Below, one piece after another: positions 6,001 through 12,000 of a stretch of DNA of 64,000 bases. The DNA lies in contig JBCNUU010000001.1 in NCBI GenBank assembly GCA_039630545.1, positions 160,001 through 224,000 of the forward strand, read 5' to 3'. The position numbers are program-made. Within the stretch, counting starts at the first letter, position 1; each line of letters begins with the position of its first letter. This DNA is from Endomicrobiia bacterium. GTDB taxonomy: Bacteria > Elusimicrobiota > Endomicrobiia > DTEH01.

Positions 6001-9000
6001 ATAGAAGATCCTATAGAATATTATCACGTAGATAAAAAATCATCCATTTCACAAAGGGAAATAGGTTCCGATACTAAATCATTTAAAAATGCTCTTAAAT
6101 ATGTATTAAGACAAGATCCTGATGTTGTAGTAATAGGAGAGATGCGTGATTTTGAAGCAATATCTGCAGGAATAACAGCAGCAGAGACTGGGCATCTTGT
6201 ACTTTCTACAATTCATACTATTGATGCTGTTCAGACAATTGACAGGATAATAGATAGTTATCCTCCTCATCAACAAAAGCAAGCACGTATACAACTTTCA
6301 AATGTTTTGAAAGGAATTGTAGCACAAAGACTATGTAATTTAAAAGATGGTTCCGGAAGAATTCCAGCTGTTGAGGTGCTTATAGGAACTTCCTTCGTTA
6401 AAAAACTTATTTTAGAAAATAAAACGCAGGAAATATATAAAGCAATGGAAGCAGGAGAGTATTATATGATGAATACTTTTGACCAATCATTACTTAAACT
6501 ATACAACTCAGGTCTTATTACATTTGACGAAGCTCTGGATAAAGCTACAAATCCAGAAGATTTACAGTTAAAACTCCGTGGAATTTCTCAAACAAGAGGT
6601 TGATTATGCTGCAGGATAAAGACAAAAAAGTAGACGAAATACTGGAAGAATTAAAAAATGTATTAGATTCTATTACTAAAAAAACTCAGACGAATACTCA
6701 ACCATTGCAAGAAGACAGTTTCAAAAAGATAGAAGAAATGAAAAATATATTGAAATCTAAAGAAAAAGAAGAAATTAAACTTGAAGAGAAAAAAGAAGCA
6801 ACACCTACCGAGAAGGTAGACAATGTTAATAAATTAAAAACTTCGTTAACTATCTTCTCTGAAACGACTAAAGAAGAGAAAACAGAACAAAAAATATCTT
6901 CCACAGCTCCAGAGAAACCATCTACTGAAGTGATGCCTCCTGAGGAAGCTGATAAAAAAGAGGGTATTGTAATAAAAACTATGGTGCTGGTTCCATTAGC
7001 TTTACAGGATGCCAAAGATGAGTTTTTTAATAATGTTAATTCTACTTTAAAACGGGTAAGTAAAAAGAATATAGAATTTAAAGAAAGTATCTGTGTAAGT
7101 TATAGTTCTTTAACCAAGGATATTTTTTTACAATATAGTTTAGTAGTTGAAAAAATCAGAAACAATAACATAAATGCCTTAATTTTTATAGTTAATGAAA
7201 ATACCTTAGAAGTAGAAGAGTTTATTAAAAAAATATCATCCTTTGTTATCTTAGCAAAAAGTATAACAATGAAAGAATTAAAAATGAGATCTACATATTT
7301 AGATCTTTCTATAGATTTACTTTTAACTATAAAATAACATGATTTCTACATGGGATTTAAAATTTTTACCAACAGATAAATATCCTAATAGGTATAGATT
7401 AAGGGTTAAGTGTTCTGCAGAAGATTTGGAAGAGTTATGTAATTTTCTTAAAGAAGACCTAAACTTAGACATATCACCTCCTTTTAATGTTTTATCTTCA
7501 AATTATAATATAGGAATTTTTATATATGAATTACCACTAGAAACTAAAAATAAACTTGTAGATAAACTATTTTCTATTTGTAAAAGTGGTACAGTAGATG
7601 AAGGAATTTCTTCCAAAGAAGAAAATCAAGAAGAGAAATCTTCTAAAAAAGAATCTTTTCCTGACGAACTAAGCAGTGTCCTTGCCGATTTGGTTGAACA
7701 ACTAAGTTCAAAAGCAGTTGAAGAAGATAGCTCATCCAAGCAAAATATCTTCAATGGGATGCCTTTGAATCCTAAATATACTTTTGAAAATTTTGTAGTA
7801 GGTGCAAGCAATAGATTTACTCATGCTGCTGCTTTAGCAGTTGCTGAAAATCCAGGAAAAGCATACAATCCCTTATTTATATATGGTGGTGTTGGTTTAG
7901 GTAAAACACATCTTATGCAGGCAATAGGACATTATATAAAAAAGAAACGTCCATTACTAAAAGTAGTTTATATCCCATCTGATAAGTTCGTTACTCAGGT
8001 AATAGAAGCTATCCGTTCCGGTAATATTCAAATGTTAAGGGATGCTTATATGAGGGTAGATGTATTATTAGTGGATGATGTTCAGTTTATGGCTAGTTCA
8101 GAATCTACACAAGAAGAGTTTTTTCATATTTTCAACACTTTGCATCAGTATGGAAAACAAATTGTTCTTACAAGTGACAGACCTCCCAAACTTTTATCCA
8201 CACTTGAGGATAGATTACGTTCTAGGTTTGAATGGGGACTTATTGCAGATATAAAATCACCTTCTTTAGAAACAAGGGTAGCTATTCTTAAAAAGAAAGG
8301 AGAAGAAGAAAAGGTTAATGTTGATGATAATATTCTTTTATATATTGCATCAAAATTGAAATCAAATATAAGAGAACTTGAAGGTTTCTTAAAAAGAATA
8401 ACAGCATATGCTCATTTAAACAATGTGCCTATAAATATGGAGCTGGTTAAACAGTTAATGAGCGAACTTTTACCAGAAGAAGAACTCACAGAAGAAGAAA
8501 AAGCATTATCTGAAACAAGAAAAGAAAAAATAGAAGAAAAATCTAAAGAAGAACCCAAAGTTTCAGTAGCGCAAGAAGCTGCTTCTAAGAATAAACAAAA
8601 AGAACCTCAAACTATTTCTCTTGAAGAAATATACAGTTCAACACAACCTCCACTTCAACCTCAAACTCCACAGGTTTCTTCCGAAACAGTTGCTTCAAGA
8701 TCATCTGCACCAGATGAACAGAAATTGTATCAAGAGTATGAAGCAGAAACAAATGTAATTGAGGCTGCATTTTTCTATCCTGAAGGTAAAACTGAAGAAC
8801 TTAATATAGTAAAACAAAAATTTACTGAAGTTATTAAAAAACATAATTTAAAATATAAATTGGCTACAGCTTTTGATAGACCATACATGTTAGAAAATAT
8901 AAACTATAGATTATTTATAGAACTATGTAAGACAAACAAAGTAAATATATGTATAGTTATATCACCTCCGCCCAATAGTAATCTCTCTGCAGAAGAATTC

Positions 9001-12000
9001 TATAATAATCTTTTACCATTAGCAGAATCAGAAGGTATTAGATTGGAATACATTAACTGGAAGGAAATAACAAAAGAATACAGATACCTAAATCTCGCCT
9101 TGGATATAGCCCTATCAAAATTTAAGATGTTTTAGGCCTTTTTTTTCATTTCATAAACTATTGATTTATAATCATAAATTTCTTAAAAATTATGAATTAT
9201 GAAATTAACAAATTTTTATTTACCAACATTAAGGGAACCGCCAAGTGAGTGTGATATAATTTCTTCTAAGCTAATGTTTAGAGCAGGTATGATAAGAAAA
9301 CTTGCCAGTGGTATATATGAGTATTTGCCACTTGGTTTAAGGGTTCTTAAGAAGATAGAGCAAATAATACGTGAAGAGATGGATAGAATAGGTGGTCTTG
9401 AAGTGTGGCTTCCTCATCTTTTGCCTCGGGATATATGGGAGCAGACAGGTAGATGGCAACTATACGGTAAAGAACTTTTTAGATTAAAAGACAGAAAAAA
9501 CGCCGATTTTTGTTTATCTCCTACAGCTGAAGAAGTTATAACACATCTTATAAGAAATGAAATGCGTTCTTATAAACAATTACCAAAAATGTTTTATCAA
9601 TTTGGTACAAAATTTAGAGATGAAATAAGACCAAGATTTGGAGTAATAAGAGCCAGAGAATTCTATATGAAAGATGCTTATTCTTTTCATAAAGATGAAA
9701 AAGATGCGGAAGAGTTTTACCAGAAGGTTTTTGATGCCTATTGTAGAATTTTTAAAAGATGTGGATTAAATTTTGTTGCGGTAGAGGCATCTACAGGGGC
9801 TATTGGAGGCAAATTTTCTCATGAGTTCATGGTTGTCAAGGAAAAAGATCCTGATTTTGTGGGTGAAGAGACAATAGTGTTTTGTTCTAATTGTGGTTAT
9901 TCTGCAAATATAGAAAAAGCAAAGTGCATATATGAAGATACTACTGAAAAGTTTTTGAAAATGGAAGAATTATGCGAAGTGTTTACTCCGGGTATGAAGA
10001 CAGTGGAAGAAGTAGCCGGTTTTTTGAAGGAATCTAAAGATAAATTTATTAAAACTTTAGTGTATAAAGAAGAAACACAAAATTATGTGTATTTAGTTCT
10101 TATTAGAGGTGATTATGAAGTAAACGAAGCAAAACTTAAAGAAGTTTTGTCATTGTCAGATATTAAGTTGGTAGAACCACAGGAGGTGGAAGAAATCTTT
10201 GGTGTTCCTGTGGGTTTTTTAGGACCTGTTAATTTAAATATTGTCAATAAAAAGTATGTAGTTAAGACTGTAGCAGATGAGTCTGTGAAATATATAATGA
10301 ATGGTATTTCTGGAGCAAATAAAAAAGATTATCATTTAAAGAATATAAATTATCAAAAAGATTTTACTGTAGATATAGTTGCTGATATTAGAAATATTAC
10401 TAAAGAAGATTTATGTCCTGTATGTAGAAATAAGAGTACTTTAAATTTTTCAAAAGGGATAGAAGTTGGTCATACTTTCAAATTAGGTACAAAATACTCA
10501 AAGTCGATGGAAGCCACTTTTCTTGATGAAAATAATAATCAGAAGTACTTTGTCATGGGATGTTATGGGATTGGTGTTTCAAGAATTATAGCAGCAGCTA
10601 TAGAACAAAATCATGATGATAAAGGGATTATCTGGTATCCTGAGATTGCTCCATTTTTAGTATATATATTGCCTATTGATTATAGTGATCCCCAGATCAA
10701 AAATATTACTGATAAACTCTATAACTTATTGTTAGACAACAATATAGAAACAATCTTAGATGACAGAGATGAACGGCCAGGAGTAAAATTTAAAGATGCG
10801 GATCTTATAGGAATACCTCTAAGAATAACTATAAGTAAAAAACTACTTCCATCAAAAGTTGAATTATATTTTAGAAAAAACTCTGAGAAAGAAGTTGTGG
10901 AGTTGGATGGTATAATAGATAAAATTAAAAAAACACTTGCTTCATTAAAAAATTTTTAATATAAACACAATTTACTTACTATGAGTAAAAATGAAATAAT
11001 AGAAAAAGTAAAAGAGGTAATTTCTCCAGTTTTAGAATCAGGTGGATATGAATTAGTAGATATAGAATATGATTTATCACAAGAAGGAAGAGTTTTAAGG
11101 ATATATATAGATAAAGATGGTGGTGTCAAAATCAAAGATTGTGAAACAGTAACTGCAATGGTTTTGACTGTATTAGATACTCATAAGATAATTGAAGAGG
11201 ATTATTTCATAGAAGTTTCATCCCCTGGAATATATCGTGAGTTAAAAAAAGAAAAAGATTTTTTAAGATATATAGGACATAGAATAAAAGTAAAATTATA
11301 CAATTCAATGGAATTGCCTCAGTTTGGTAAGCAGAAAGTTTTTTTTGGTAAATTAAAAGATTTTAAAAATAATACTTTGTGGATCGTCTTGGATAACAAC
11401 TTAGAAATATGTTTTGATATGAGTATAGTTGCGAAGGTAAATTTAGAACCAGACATTTCTATTTTATTTGATAAATAACTTTAAATCTATGACAGAAATA
11501 AAACTTGAAGATATATTACCAGCATTAGAACAAATAGAAAAGTTGCATAAAATACCTCGTGAGGAGGTTATAAAGTCTATAGAATCAGCTATAACTTCAG
11601 CTGCTAACAAATTTTTTGGTTCCGAATATAAAATCGTAACTAACATAGATTTTAACAGCGGTACTGGAGTGCAAACTTTTATCATTAAAAAAGTTGTTGA
11701 AAAAATTACTGATGAAAAACAAGAAATTTCTTTAGAAGAGGCAAAAAAATATAATTCTCAAGCTAAAATAGGAGATGAAGTAAAAATTTTAGTAAATAAT
11801 GCTTCTTTTAGCAGGTTAGCTGCTCAGTCTGCTAAGAAGATTATTTTACAAAAACTCCGTGAAAGTTACAAAAAGAATATCTTTGAGGAATATAAATCAA
11901 AAGTAGGTGAAATAGTATCAGCAAATGTGTATGCTATAAAAGGCAAAACCATTATATTAGAAGTGATGGGAAATATTGAAGGAATAATTCCACAGAGGGA

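What a model noticed while it worked through the whole genome (the two positions that open the first line are those of the whole stretch)
7339..9135. DnaA paralog whose DNA-binding domain is replaced by an Argonaute-MID-like domain
g00153 (598 aa) has a DnaA domain-III AAA+ core but no DnaA-box-binding domain IV; it ends in a 130-residue domain whose predicted fold is closest to the MID (5'-end-binding) domain of Argonaute/PIWI proteins, and it coexists with a canonical four-domain DnaA (g01491 on C82). Boldest reading: a second initiator-type ATPase that joins DnaA filaments or origins but is steered by a nucleic-acid 5' end or a nucleotide bound in the MID-like pocket, i.e. a new kind of replication-initiation regulator. 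New: no DnaA-MID architecture is described; databases name these proteins plain DnaA.
Evidence so far: pfam.tsv: only Bac_DnaA (res. 143-303, E 5e-72) with IstB/AAA overlaps; no DnaA_N, no Bac_DnaA_C, whereas g01491 has all three. Res. 143-382 are 61% identical to Clostridium perfringens DnaA (E 3e-97, call 102) and 47% to this genome's own DnaA over 249 aa. AF2 of the whole protein with 17 homologs: N domain 1-88 pLDDT ~88, AAA+ 140-380, disordered acidic linker 397-460, C domain 470-596 pLDDT 80-88. C domain alone with 10 homologs: mean pLDDT 85, pTM 0.80. MIWI MID 4p1z 13.2; hAgo2 MID 7c6b 12.0; AfAgo 6t5t 10.7; A. aeolicus Ago 1yvu 10.6); first non-Ago Ro [...]
(Added by a program. Inside this text positions count along the whole contig: contig position 160,001 is position 1 of the stretch shown here. 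"Call 12" and the like, gene names such as g00115 and contig names such as C1 are that model's own, and its searches are not shown. The text may have been shortened before it was handed on; [...] marks where a part breaks off. The agent that wrote the report below was given it as the finding of a first reader that could run no searches.)

Follow-up and report, generated by a model that had tools for sequence, protein, structure and literature searches.

The report
DnaA-derived ATPase in a PilT operon
A second, very well conserved copy of the motor part of the replication starter protein DnaA has lost its DNA-recognition domain, carries two unknown end domains instead, and is inherited across one bacterial phylum together with a pilus-type motor and signalling genes, so it may link cell signals to the start of DNA copying.

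Summary
Window 7339-9135 (+) encodes a 598-aa protein with a complete DnaA AAA+ module, no DnaA_N and no DnaA-box-binding domain IV. A canonical DnaA lies elsewhere in the genome.

- The same C domain ends the upstream 245-aa ORF (hhalign 98.8%).
- The N domain recurs on the GGDEF protein.
- The gene sits in a tight operon: GGDEF, PilT paralog, C-domain protein, DnaA-like.
- The DnaA-like gene and its dedicated PilT paralog are co-inherited across Elusimicrobiota. Both are missing from one family (0 of 89 genomes for the C domain).
- A GAF histidine kinase follows directly in 29 of 56 species loci.
- All ATPase motifs and the arginine finger are kept in 21 of 21 paralogs. The ssDNA-contacting lysine is replaced in 21 of 21.

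Best reading (about 0.35): a signal-controlled DnaA-type oligomerising switch, most likely a non-melting subunit of DnaA filaments. A PilT-linked, replication-independent role is nearly as likely.

The parts
4081..5513 (+). GGDEF diguanylate cyclase gene, first gene of the operon. Its N-terminal ~85 residues are a copy of the N domain of the DnaA-like protein, interrupted here by an in-frame TAA at 4204-4206. The ORF restarts at TTG 4227.
   Evidence: Pfam GGDEF E 3.7e-37. The sequence read shows ATG 4081 and TAA at 4204-4206 where the same-genus locus L034 has Glu. The N-domain profile hits C1:164080-164337 at E 2.6e-19 with 1 TAA inside and the L034 GGDEF N-terminus at 1.6e-13. Contigs of runs X1-X3 are identical over 4000-4500.
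5497..6603 (+). Dedicated PilT-family hexameric ATPase paralog. It overlaps the GGDEF stop by 17 nt.
   Evidence: TIGR01420 pilT_fam 465 bits (cut-off 319). It is one of three PilT-like genes in the genome. It is 47.5-50% identical to the other two, and the 19 DnaA-linked PilTs form their own clade. It lies upstream of the DnaA-like gene in 19 of 26 loci.
6600..7337 (+). 245-aa protein: a low-complexity Lys/Glu-rich N half followed by a paralogous copy of the C domain (res. ~118-245, window 6951-7334). Its start overlaps the pilT stop by 4 nt, and its stop lies 1 nt before the DnaA-like ATG.
   Evidence: No Pfam or NCBIfam hit. hhalign of 21 DnaA-like C domains (A1) against 9 upstream-ORF C domains (A2): probability 98.8%, E 7.6e-17, 121 columns.
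7339..7602 (+). N domain (res. 1-88) of the DnaA-like protein, a family-specific alpha/beta domain (b-b-a-b-a-b). It is not DnaA domain I.
7603..7755 (+). Linker 1 (res. 89-139), Ser/Glu/Lys-rich.
   Evidence: Read from the translation. Its length varies between homologs.
7756..8484 (+). DnaA-type AAA+ module (res. 140-382). Kept: Walker A G183-T190, Walker B D246-D247, Box VII arginine finger R296, sensor II R345. S254 replaces the ssDNA-contacting lysine.
   Evidence: Bac_DnaA E 3.3e-71. B. subtilis DnaA 8btg E 2.1e-95 and 8bv3 317 bits. Motif columns were read in 21 paralogs and 16 canonical DnaAs.
8485..8739 (+). Linker 2 (res. 383-467), Glu/Lys/Pro/Gln/Ser-rich, taking the place of the link to domain IV.
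   Evidence: Read from the translation. It is unaligned and of variable length among homologs.
8740..9135 (+). C domain (res. 468-598) and stop codon. A four-stranded Rossmann-like domain, MID-like by VIA-align, always at the extreme C-terminus of its proteins.
   Evidence: AF2 pLDDT 92. Fold searches. 283 cluster representatives at E<=1e-3 in 1.84 billion proteins. The domain ends a median of 2 residues from the protein end. No Pfam or PDB sequence match.

Best explanation
The gene encodes a DnaA-derived ATP switch that has been taken out of origin recognition and wired into a signalling operon.

Shown:
- It keeps every element a DnaA protomer needs to bind ATP and to stack head to tail with a neighbouring DnaA-type protomer: Walker A and B, sensor I and II, and the Box VII arginine finger.
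- Its AAA+ module evolves about as slowly as the essential initiator itself.
- It has no DnaA-box-binding domain IV and no domain I.
- The loop lysine that B. subtilis DnaA uses to hold the ssDNA backbone is Ser, Val or Ala in all paralogs examined.
- It carries two family-specific end domains that recur, without the ATPase, on small proteins of the same operon and on a diguanylate cyclase.
- It is co-inherited with a dedicated PilT paralog and is often translationally coupled to a GAF histidine kinase.

Inferred:
- The protein still oligomerises like DnaA-ATP but cannot by itself anchor at or melt an origin.
- The N and C domains are docking or ligand-sensing modules. Through them the operon's signalling parts (two-component system, c-di-GMP enzymes, PilT paralog, N-C adaptor proteins) set where and when it oligomerises.
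- The most likely output is entry into DnaA filaments at oriC as a non-melting subunit that caps or poisons them. That would make replication initiation answer to those signals.
For: - ATPase and oligomerisation motifs are kept in 21 of 21 paralogs.
- The equivalents of B. subtilis R264 (arginine finger) and of the DnaA-trio residues Ile190, Ile193, Arg202 and Glu228 are kept. This follows from the alignment and the residue roles given in passages of PMC10721633.
- Mean AAA+ identity is 64.6% within paralogs (210 pairs) and 67.1% within canonical DnaAs (120 pairs), against 50.3% between the two. They form two clades whose internal order looks alike by eye.
- The paralog scores 317.1 bits against the B. 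subtilis AAA+ chain 8bv3. The genome's own DnaA scores 253.6 bits.
- A canonical DnaA coexists in 20 of 21 genomes.
- The B-motif lysine is present in 0 of 21 paralogs and 14 of 16 canonical DnaAs.
- Operon structure: the reading frames overlap or sit 1 nt apart from 4081 to 9135, with no terminator-like site on the + strand after 3675, that is none between 4081 and 9135.
- The upstream ORF shares the C domain. The N domain is on the GGDEF protein.
- The PilT paralog is adjacent in 19 of 26 loci and forms its own clade.
- Five f2 genomes were searched with this PilT. Their best hit is 45% identical or absent. The C domain is found in 0 of 89 f2 genomes.
- A GAF/histidine-kinase gene starts within -20 to +150 nt downstream in 29 of 56 usable species loci. 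Single REC, PilZ and a REC-REC-C-domain protein also occur.
Against: - Nothing ties the protein physically to oriC or DnaA. The gene is not near dnaA or dnaN, and the window has no DnaA-box cluster (32 hits with one mismatch or fewer against 22.4 expected, scattered).
- All direct genomic associations point to PilT and signalling genes, not to replication genes.
- Divergent members in families f20, f24 and f28 have much weaker DnaA similarity (E 1e-33 to 1e-39 against my AAA+ profile). Strong DnaA-like constraint is therefore not universal.
- The loss of the lysine and of Asn187 could equally mean that DNA is no longer a partner at all.
- Tree congruence was judged by eye, without outgroup or test.
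Confidence: 0.35

Rival explanations
1. A PilT-linked ATPase with no role in replication. The DnaA AAA+ module is reused as an ATP-dependent oligomeric scaffold or switch. With its dedicated PilT paralog, N-C adaptors, GGDEF/PilZ and a GAF kinase with a CheY-like regulator, it controls a type IV pilus-like machine (motility, adhesion or secretion).
For: The only direct evidence for partners is genomic, and it points here:
- The PilT paralog is adjacent in 19 of 26 loci. It is co-inherited and, like the C domain, not found in family f2.
- HK, single REC, PilZ and GGDEF genes lie in the cluster.
- A secretin is nearby in L043 and L053.
- The ssDNA lysine is lost in 21 of 21 paralogs.
- The genome has separate T4P ATPases, three PilB-like and two other PilT-like, so this PilT is free to specialise.
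Against: - A scaffold that no longer deals with DnaA or DNA would be expected to drift as Hda and DnaC did. Hda profiles score far below cut-off here (106.7 against 194.8 bits).
- Instead the module stays closer to B. subtilis DnaA than the genome's own initiator does.
- It keeps the residues that capture DnaA-trio bases, except Asn187.
- No pilus structural gene lies in the window's operon.
Confidence: 0.3
2. A DnaA-type filament is nucleated on a nucleic-acid 5' end, or gated by a nucleotide, through the MID-like C domain in place of DnaA boxes. One example would be action on incoming or damaged single-stranded DNA.
For: - MID domains are the best structural match by VIA-align: ranks 1-18 of 48,161 representatives, and all 50 entries shown in the second look.
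- Protein-language-model neighbours include Piwi/ArgoMid-labelled clusters, but only at 0.76-0.79, which the tool rates as a lead only.
- The hhalign alignment to a pAgo family, though not significant, is collinear with the MID region over 112 columns. It puts the MID glutamine on a column that is Q in 14 and E in 7 of 21.
- The most conserved C-domain motifs (FFYPEG, GPPP, PW..L.K.YRY) sit at the C-terminal ends of the strands, where Rossmann-like domains bind ligands.
- Four of the six ssDNA-contact positions named in PMC10721633 are kept. Those six are Asn187, Ile190, Ile193, Arg202, Lys222 and Glu228.
Against: - hhalign probability is 3.3%.
- Foldseek ranks lumazine synthase and a PTS IIB domain above MID.
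- The MID lysine position is a variable, non-basic column.
- The ssDNA-backbone lysine of DnaA is lost in 21 of 21 paralogs.
- The C domain also sits on AAA-less proteins and on a REC-REC protein, as a generic output or docking module would.
Confidence: 0.12
3. An initiator or maintenance protein of a second replicon or mobile element, or an anti-phage defence ATPase.
For: DnaA-like proteins do serve plasmids (search listing only). There is one weak PADLOC hit, mad8 at E 2.6e-6, on the P-loop region.
Against: - No DNA-binding domain.
- Single copy in a conserved housekeeping neighbourhood, rpiB-TPR-lipoprotein-deoC ... proS/rimP/nusA/infB.
- Vertical inheritance across the phylum.
- The PADLOC hit covers only generic ATPase positions and also hits PilT.
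Confidence: 0.04

Closest known systems
DnaA, chromosomal replication initiator (TIGR00362; B. subtilis DnaA structures 8btg and 8bv3)
   Same: A full AAA+ domain III with the initiator-type motifs, the arginine finger, sensor II and most DnaA-trio contact residues. E 2.1e-95 to 8btg.
   Different: It has no domain I, no domain IV and no ssDNA-backbone lysine. It has its own N and C domains. It is not the genome's only DnaA, and its gene sits in a PilT/signalling operon.
Hda/HdaA and other AAA+-only DnaA relatives (TIGR03420)
   Same: A DnaA-derived AAA+ protein without domain IV that could act on DnaA through the AAA+ interface.
   Different: Hda is about 230 aa with a clamp-binding N-terminus (recalled). 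Here the Hda profile scores 106.7 bits against a cut-off of 194.8. The module is far closer to DnaA proper, and the protein is 598 aa with two extra domains.
Argonaute/PIWI MID domain
   Different: Sequence identity is 6-16%. There is no significant profile similarity (probability 3.3%). The phosphate-binding lysine is not conserved. The domain is never found with PIWI or PAZ. It always ends the protein.
Caulobacter pilus to c-di-GMP to cell-cycle initiation pathway (PMC7196804, seen as search listing and start of abstract only)
   Same: It combines pilus dynamics, two-component and c-di-GMP signalling, and the decision to start replication.
   Different: There the parts are dispersed and act through CtrA and DnaA control. 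Here a PilT paralog, a GGDEF protein, HK/REC genes and a DnaA-derived ATPase sit in one conserved cluster, and no functional link has been shown.

Membership tests
DnaA (chromosomal replication initiator) | AAA+ domain III with Walker A/B, sensor I/II and Box VII arginine finger | tested here: met
   Bac_DnaA E 3.3e-71. The motifs are present in 21 of 21 paralogs.
DnaA (chromosomal replication initiator) | C-terminal DnaA-box-binding domain IV (Bac_DnaA_C) | tested here: not met
   No PF08299 hit on P0001. The only PF08299 place in the genome is on C82.
DnaA (chromosomal replication initiator) | N-terminal domain I (DnaA_N) | tested here: not met
   No Pfam hit. The N-domain model best matches eIF1/SUI1-like and ACT-like folds. 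No DnaA domain I appears among the rows shown.
DnaA (chromosomal replication initiator) | ssDNA-backbone contact lysine of the alpha5-alpha6 loop (B. subtilis Lys222) | tested here: not met
   Ser254 in the window protein. Ser, Val or Ala in 21 of 21 paralogs, against Lys in 14 of 16 canonical DnaAs. The role of the residue is taken from PMC10721633 passages.
Hda (DnaA regulatory inactivator) | Match to the Hda equivalog profile above its cut-off | tested here: not met
   TIGR03420 scores 106.7 bits against a cut-off of 194.8. The other Hda models score lower.
Argonaute MID domain | MID fold | tested here: met
Argonaute MID domain | Sequence-profile homology to MID | tested here: inconclusive
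   hhalign of A3 against the short-pAgo family A5: probability 3.3%, E 0.013, collinear over 112 columns. No Pfam or PDB sequence hit.
Argonaute MID domain | 5'-phosphate pocket residues (Y/H-K-Q-K; the motif is recalled) | tested here: inconclusive
   In the weak hhalign alignment, and by extrapolating from VIA ranges (hAgo2 443-574 to model 2-130), the first Lys falls on variable non-basic columns. The Gln falls on a Q/E column (14 Q, 7 E of 21). The last Lys may fall on K/R127 (17 of 21). No coordinates were available.
Argonaute MID domain | Association with a PIWI domain | tested here: not met
   Piwi has no match in G000 and matches in 2 of 401 genomes of the phylum. There is no Piwi among the 148 C-domain proteins scanned.
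PilT family (neighbour gene 5497-6603) | Match to TIGR01420 above its cut-off | tested here: met
   465.2 bits against a cut-off of 319.1.

The most novel reading that the evidence does not exclude
A phylum-wide, vertically inherited gene cluster hard-wires three things together: a pilus-retraction-type ATPase, two-component and c-di-GMP signalling parts, and an ultra-conserved DnaA-derived ATPase whose DNA anchor has been swapped for a MID-like ligand-binding domain. The paralog enters DnaA filaments as a signal-gated, non-melting subunit. Surface, pilus or second-messenger signals would then directly license or block chromosome replication. This would be a new class of initiation control, and a new use of the MID fold outside Argonautes.
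Probability: 0.15. Interest if true: 0.85.

Novelty: new variant of a known kind. Interest (0 to 1): 0.66.

Why it matters
Known regulators of DnaA are small unrelated proteins or the short Hda. A full-strength DnaA ATPase module kept for the whole history of a phylum, without any DNA-recognition domain and tied to a PilT motor and sensor kinases, is not described in the papers I could search.

If it joins DnaA filaments, it gives a direct, testable route from environmental or pilus signals to replication initiation, in a phylum with almost no genetics.

If it does not, it shows that the initiator ATPase can be recruited for a non-replicative machine while staying nearly unchanged. That would itself need explaining.

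It also defines two new domain families: the N domain, and the MID-like C domain with 283 cluster representatives. Database annotation of these proteins as plain 'chromosomal replication initiator protein DnaA' (names listed) is misleading.

Tried and rejected
- Complex prediction (N domain against the two C domains): not available. No binding was modelled.
- PADLOC: only generic P-loop hits.
- C-domain profile against PDB sequences and Pfam: only chance-level hits, best E 0.025 to designed proteins.
- ESM Atlas on the N domain: no usable hit.
- Foldseek on the N domain: nothing at E<=1e-3.
- hhalign of the C-domain profile against a single short pAgo and against its family: probabilities 2.7%, 3.3% and 2.0%.
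- BLASTP of the upstream ORF against P0001: not significant on its own (E 2.5). The relation shows only with profiles.
- DnaA-box scan of the window: no cluster.
- Promoter and terminator scans: at chance level.
- Sequencing runs: no RNA holder listed. Three DNA runs from one study may be the source, so expression and co-transcription are untested.
- Defence-system, plasmid-initiator and DnaC-like readings: rejected for the reasons given under rivals.
- Clamp-binding motif: I looked by eye in the N-terminus of the translation and saw none. The motif is recalled, and this was not a formal search.

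
Full report
**1. The observation**

Window 7339-9135 (+) is an ATG-started ORF of 598 aa.
- Pfam finds only Bac_DnaA (res. 143-303, E 3.3e-71), with overlapping generic AAA families. There is no DnaA_N and no Bac_DnaA_C.
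- The NCBIfam DnaA equivalog passes its cut-off (369 against 344 bits) but aligns only to profile positions 99-363 of 437. Hda models fall far below their cut-offs.
- The genome (G000, 1.6 Mb in 82 contigs, 95.5% complete) has three Bac_DnaA places: this gene, a 454-aa four-domain DnaA on C82, and a DnaC/IstB-like fragment at the start of C31.
- The paralog is 47% identical to the genome's own DnaA over 249 residues. It matches B. subtilis DnaA (8btg) at E 2.1e-95 over res. 124-382.
- The descriptive part of the finding is therefore correct.

**2. The C domain and the MID claim**

I cut the C domain from 21 loci and folded it. The model has mean pLDDT 92.0 and pTM 0.86, with topology b1-a1-b2-a2-b3-a3-b4-a4.

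Evidence for a MID-like fold:

Evidence against a specific link to MID:
- Foldseek orders the hits differently. Brucella lumazine synthase is first (E 1.5e-5, TMq 0.63), a PTS IIB domain is next, and MID domains start at rank 14 (E 2.4e-4).
- At sequence level nothing is found in Pfam or among PDB sequences.

To test homology I took a natural short Argonaute from a genome of the same phylum, collected 43 relatives, aligned 31 of them, and compared profiles.
- The probability is 3.3% (E 0.013).
- The single alignment is nevertheless collinear with the MID part of the pAgo over 112 columns.
- In that alignment the pAgo lysine that I take, from recalled spacing of the MID K-Q-K motif, to be the phosphate-binding one falls on a variable, non-basic C-domain column.
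- The motif glutamine falls on a column that is Q in 14 and E in 7 of 21 sequences.
- Extrapolating the nearly gap-free VIA ranges (hAgo2 443-574 onto model 2-130) gives the same picture.

The fold is therefore MID-like. Common ancestry is unproven, and the canonical 5'-phosphate pocket is not conserved.

The most conserved motifs (FFYPEG, Y49, [17 protein letters not shown]) lie at the C-terminal ends of the strands and on the last helix. A ligand or partner site there is plausible.

No Piwi domain exists in this genome, and only 2 of 401 genomes of the phylum have one.

**3.

The C domain:
- The 245-aa ORF just upstream (6600-7337) has no Pfam hit, but it ends with the same domain.
- Profiles of 21 DnaA-like C domains and 9 upstream-ORF C domains align at 98.8% probability, E 7.6e-17, over 121 columns.

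The N domain:
- In this genome it occurs exactly twice: on the DnaA-like protein and at the start of the GGDEF gene.
- In other lineages the ORFs between pilT and the DnaA-like gene carry N, C or both. In family f25 the DnaA-like protein lacks N, and an upstream 523-542-aa ORF is N-linker-C.

The wider family:
- A profile search of 1.84 billion representative proteins finds 283 at E<=1e-3.
- I classified 150 proteins with my own HMMs: the 148 newly returned among the top 150, plus P0031 and P0043, which were among the top 150. The counts are 92 C only, 23 N-AAA-C, 17 AAA-C, 17 N-C and 1 N-N-AAA-C. The C domain ends a median of 2 residues from the protein end.
- Pfam on the 148 adds only Bac_DnaA and one REC-REC-C protein.

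**4. The operon and its inheritance**

In the window:
- The genes are packed. GGDEF runs from 4081 with an in-frame TAA at 4204-4206, overlaps pilT (5497-6603) by 17 nt, pilT overlaps the 245-aa ORF by 4 nt, and that ORF ends 1 nt before the DnaA-like ATG.
- proS, rimP, nusA and infB follow. rpiB, a TPR protein, a lipoprotein and deoC precede.

Across 26 loci from as many genomes (the window plus 25 relatives):
- The PilT gene is adjacent in 19.
- These 19 PilTs form one clade, apart from the genome's two other PilT paralogs (47.5-50% identity). The branching looks like that of the DnaA-like proteins.
- A GAF/histidine-kinase gene starts at or just after the DnaA-like stop in 13 of the 26.

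Across 56 usable of 61 species-representative loci, which partly overlap the same genomes, a GAF/histidine-kinase gene follows in 29. Single-domain REC, PilZ and secretin genes occur nearby in some.

Distribution:
- With the combined profile, the C domain is found in 136 of 401 sampled genomes of the phylum, 73 of 123 genera. It is in nearly every family except f2 (0 of 89, many of them 97-100% complete) and parts of f20, f24 and f29.
- Five f2 genomes searched with the PilT have at best a 45%-identical PilT, or none.
- All 61 loci found in species-representative genomes carry Elusimicrobia or Endomicrobia titles, except four submitter labels. One of those four is placed in the window's class by the genome collection.

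Evolution of the AAA+ module:
- Paralog and canonical DnaA AAA+ modules form two clades with 50.3% mean identity between them.
- Divergence within each is similar, 64.6% and 67.1%.
- Inheritance therefore looks ancient and vertical, but I ran no outgroup-rooted tree or congruence test.

**5. What the ATPase can and cannot do**

Kept in 21 of 21 paralogs are Walker A, Walker B, sensor I, the Box VII RxxSRF arginine finger and sensor II.

Passages of the B. subtilis origin-complex paper (PMC10721633) give these roles:
- Arg264 is the arginine finger.
- Asn187, Ile190, Ile193, Arg202 and Glu228 form the DnaA-trio pocket.
- The essential Lys222 is a phosphate contact.

By the HMMER alignment, the window protein keeps Ile222, Ile225, Arg234, Glu260 and Arg296. 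It has Thr219 for Asn187 and Ser254 for Lys222. The lysine is absent from all 21 paralogs and present in 14 of 16 canonical DnaAs of the phylum.

The module is closer to B. subtilis DnaA than this genome's own initiator is: 317.1 against 253.6 bits on 8bv3.

**6. Reading**

- The conservation argues that the protein still does something DnaA-like that involves many surfaces. I take this to be ATP-dependent head-to-tail assembly, possibly together with DnaA.
- The missing domain IV and lysine argue that it cannot find or melt an origin by itself.
- The genomic company argues that it is controlled by, or controls, a PilT paralog and two-component or c-di-GMP signalling.
- My best single account is a signal-gated, non-melting subunit of DnaA filaments (0.35).
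- A replication-independent PilT-linked switch is almost as likely (0.30).
- A 5'-end- or nucleotide-steered filament gets 0.12.
- A mobile-element or defence role gets 0.04.
- The rest is unassigned.
- None of the interactions was tested.

**7. Novelty**

Full-text searches found no paper on such a protein. I used three term sets: DnaA with Elusimicrobia and PilT; DnaA paralog, homolog or DnaA-like protein; and MID domain with Argonaute, Rossmann and DnaA. Subscription journals are not covered. Sources that give these proteins a name call them 'chromosomal replication initiator protein DnaA'.

Noticed in passing
window 4081-4343 (stop at 4204-4206): The GGDEF gene's N-terminal N domain is cut by an in-frame TAA where the same-genus locus L034 has Glu. 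The ORF restarts at TTG 4227, so this strain may make a cyclase without its N domain. Contigs of three runs (two samples, one study, possibly the source) are identical here.
   Followed up: partly
L002:970-2334 (G000 C82): The genome's canonical DnaA is less like B. subtilis DnaA in its AAA+ part than the paralog is (253.6 against 317.1 bits on 8bv3). It has APVGLGKT instead of GGVGLGKT in Walker A. Its neighbours are a KsgA-like methyltransferase and trpD, not dnaN.
   Followed up: partly
L046, L048, L049, L042-L045, L053, L148, L149, L151: A cytoplasmic multi-GAF histidine kinase starts at or within 14 nt of the DnaA-like stop in many lineages. In three of them a single-domain REC follows. 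This is absent from the window's own family, where proS follows instead.
   Followed up: partly
P0158: A 543-aa protein with two REC domains, a long Pro/Glu/Lys-rich linker and the C domain at its end. The C domain here serves as a response-regulator output module.
   Followed up: no
L147, L150 (family f20): Divergent members of 894-943 aa lie directly after deoC, with about 500 unassigned N-terminal residues before a weaker DnaA-like AAA+ and the C domain. Many f20 matches contain one in-frame stop.
   Followed up: no
L152:1033-3415 (G222 C6) and G391 C5: A short prokaryotic Argonaute (465 aa, MID-PIWI) with an overlapping upstream 341-aa gene. These are the only Piwi-domain hits in 401 genomes of the phylum.
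   Followed up: partly
G000 C56:55190-58949, C2:1211-1681, C1:249266-250426: The genome holds three PilB/GspE-like and three PilT-like ATPases. Two PilB-like genes and one PilT-like gene sit together on C56, probably the main pilus locus.
   Followed up: no
window 1948-4072 and loci L042, L044, L053: The order rpiB, TPR protein, GNA1162-like lipoprotein, deoC upstream of the module is conserved across distant families of the phylum. TIM often lies further upstream.
   Followed up: no
window 8194-8202: The only perfect TTATCCACA in the 64-kb window lies inside the paralog's own coding sequence. There is no cluster around it.
   Followed up: yes
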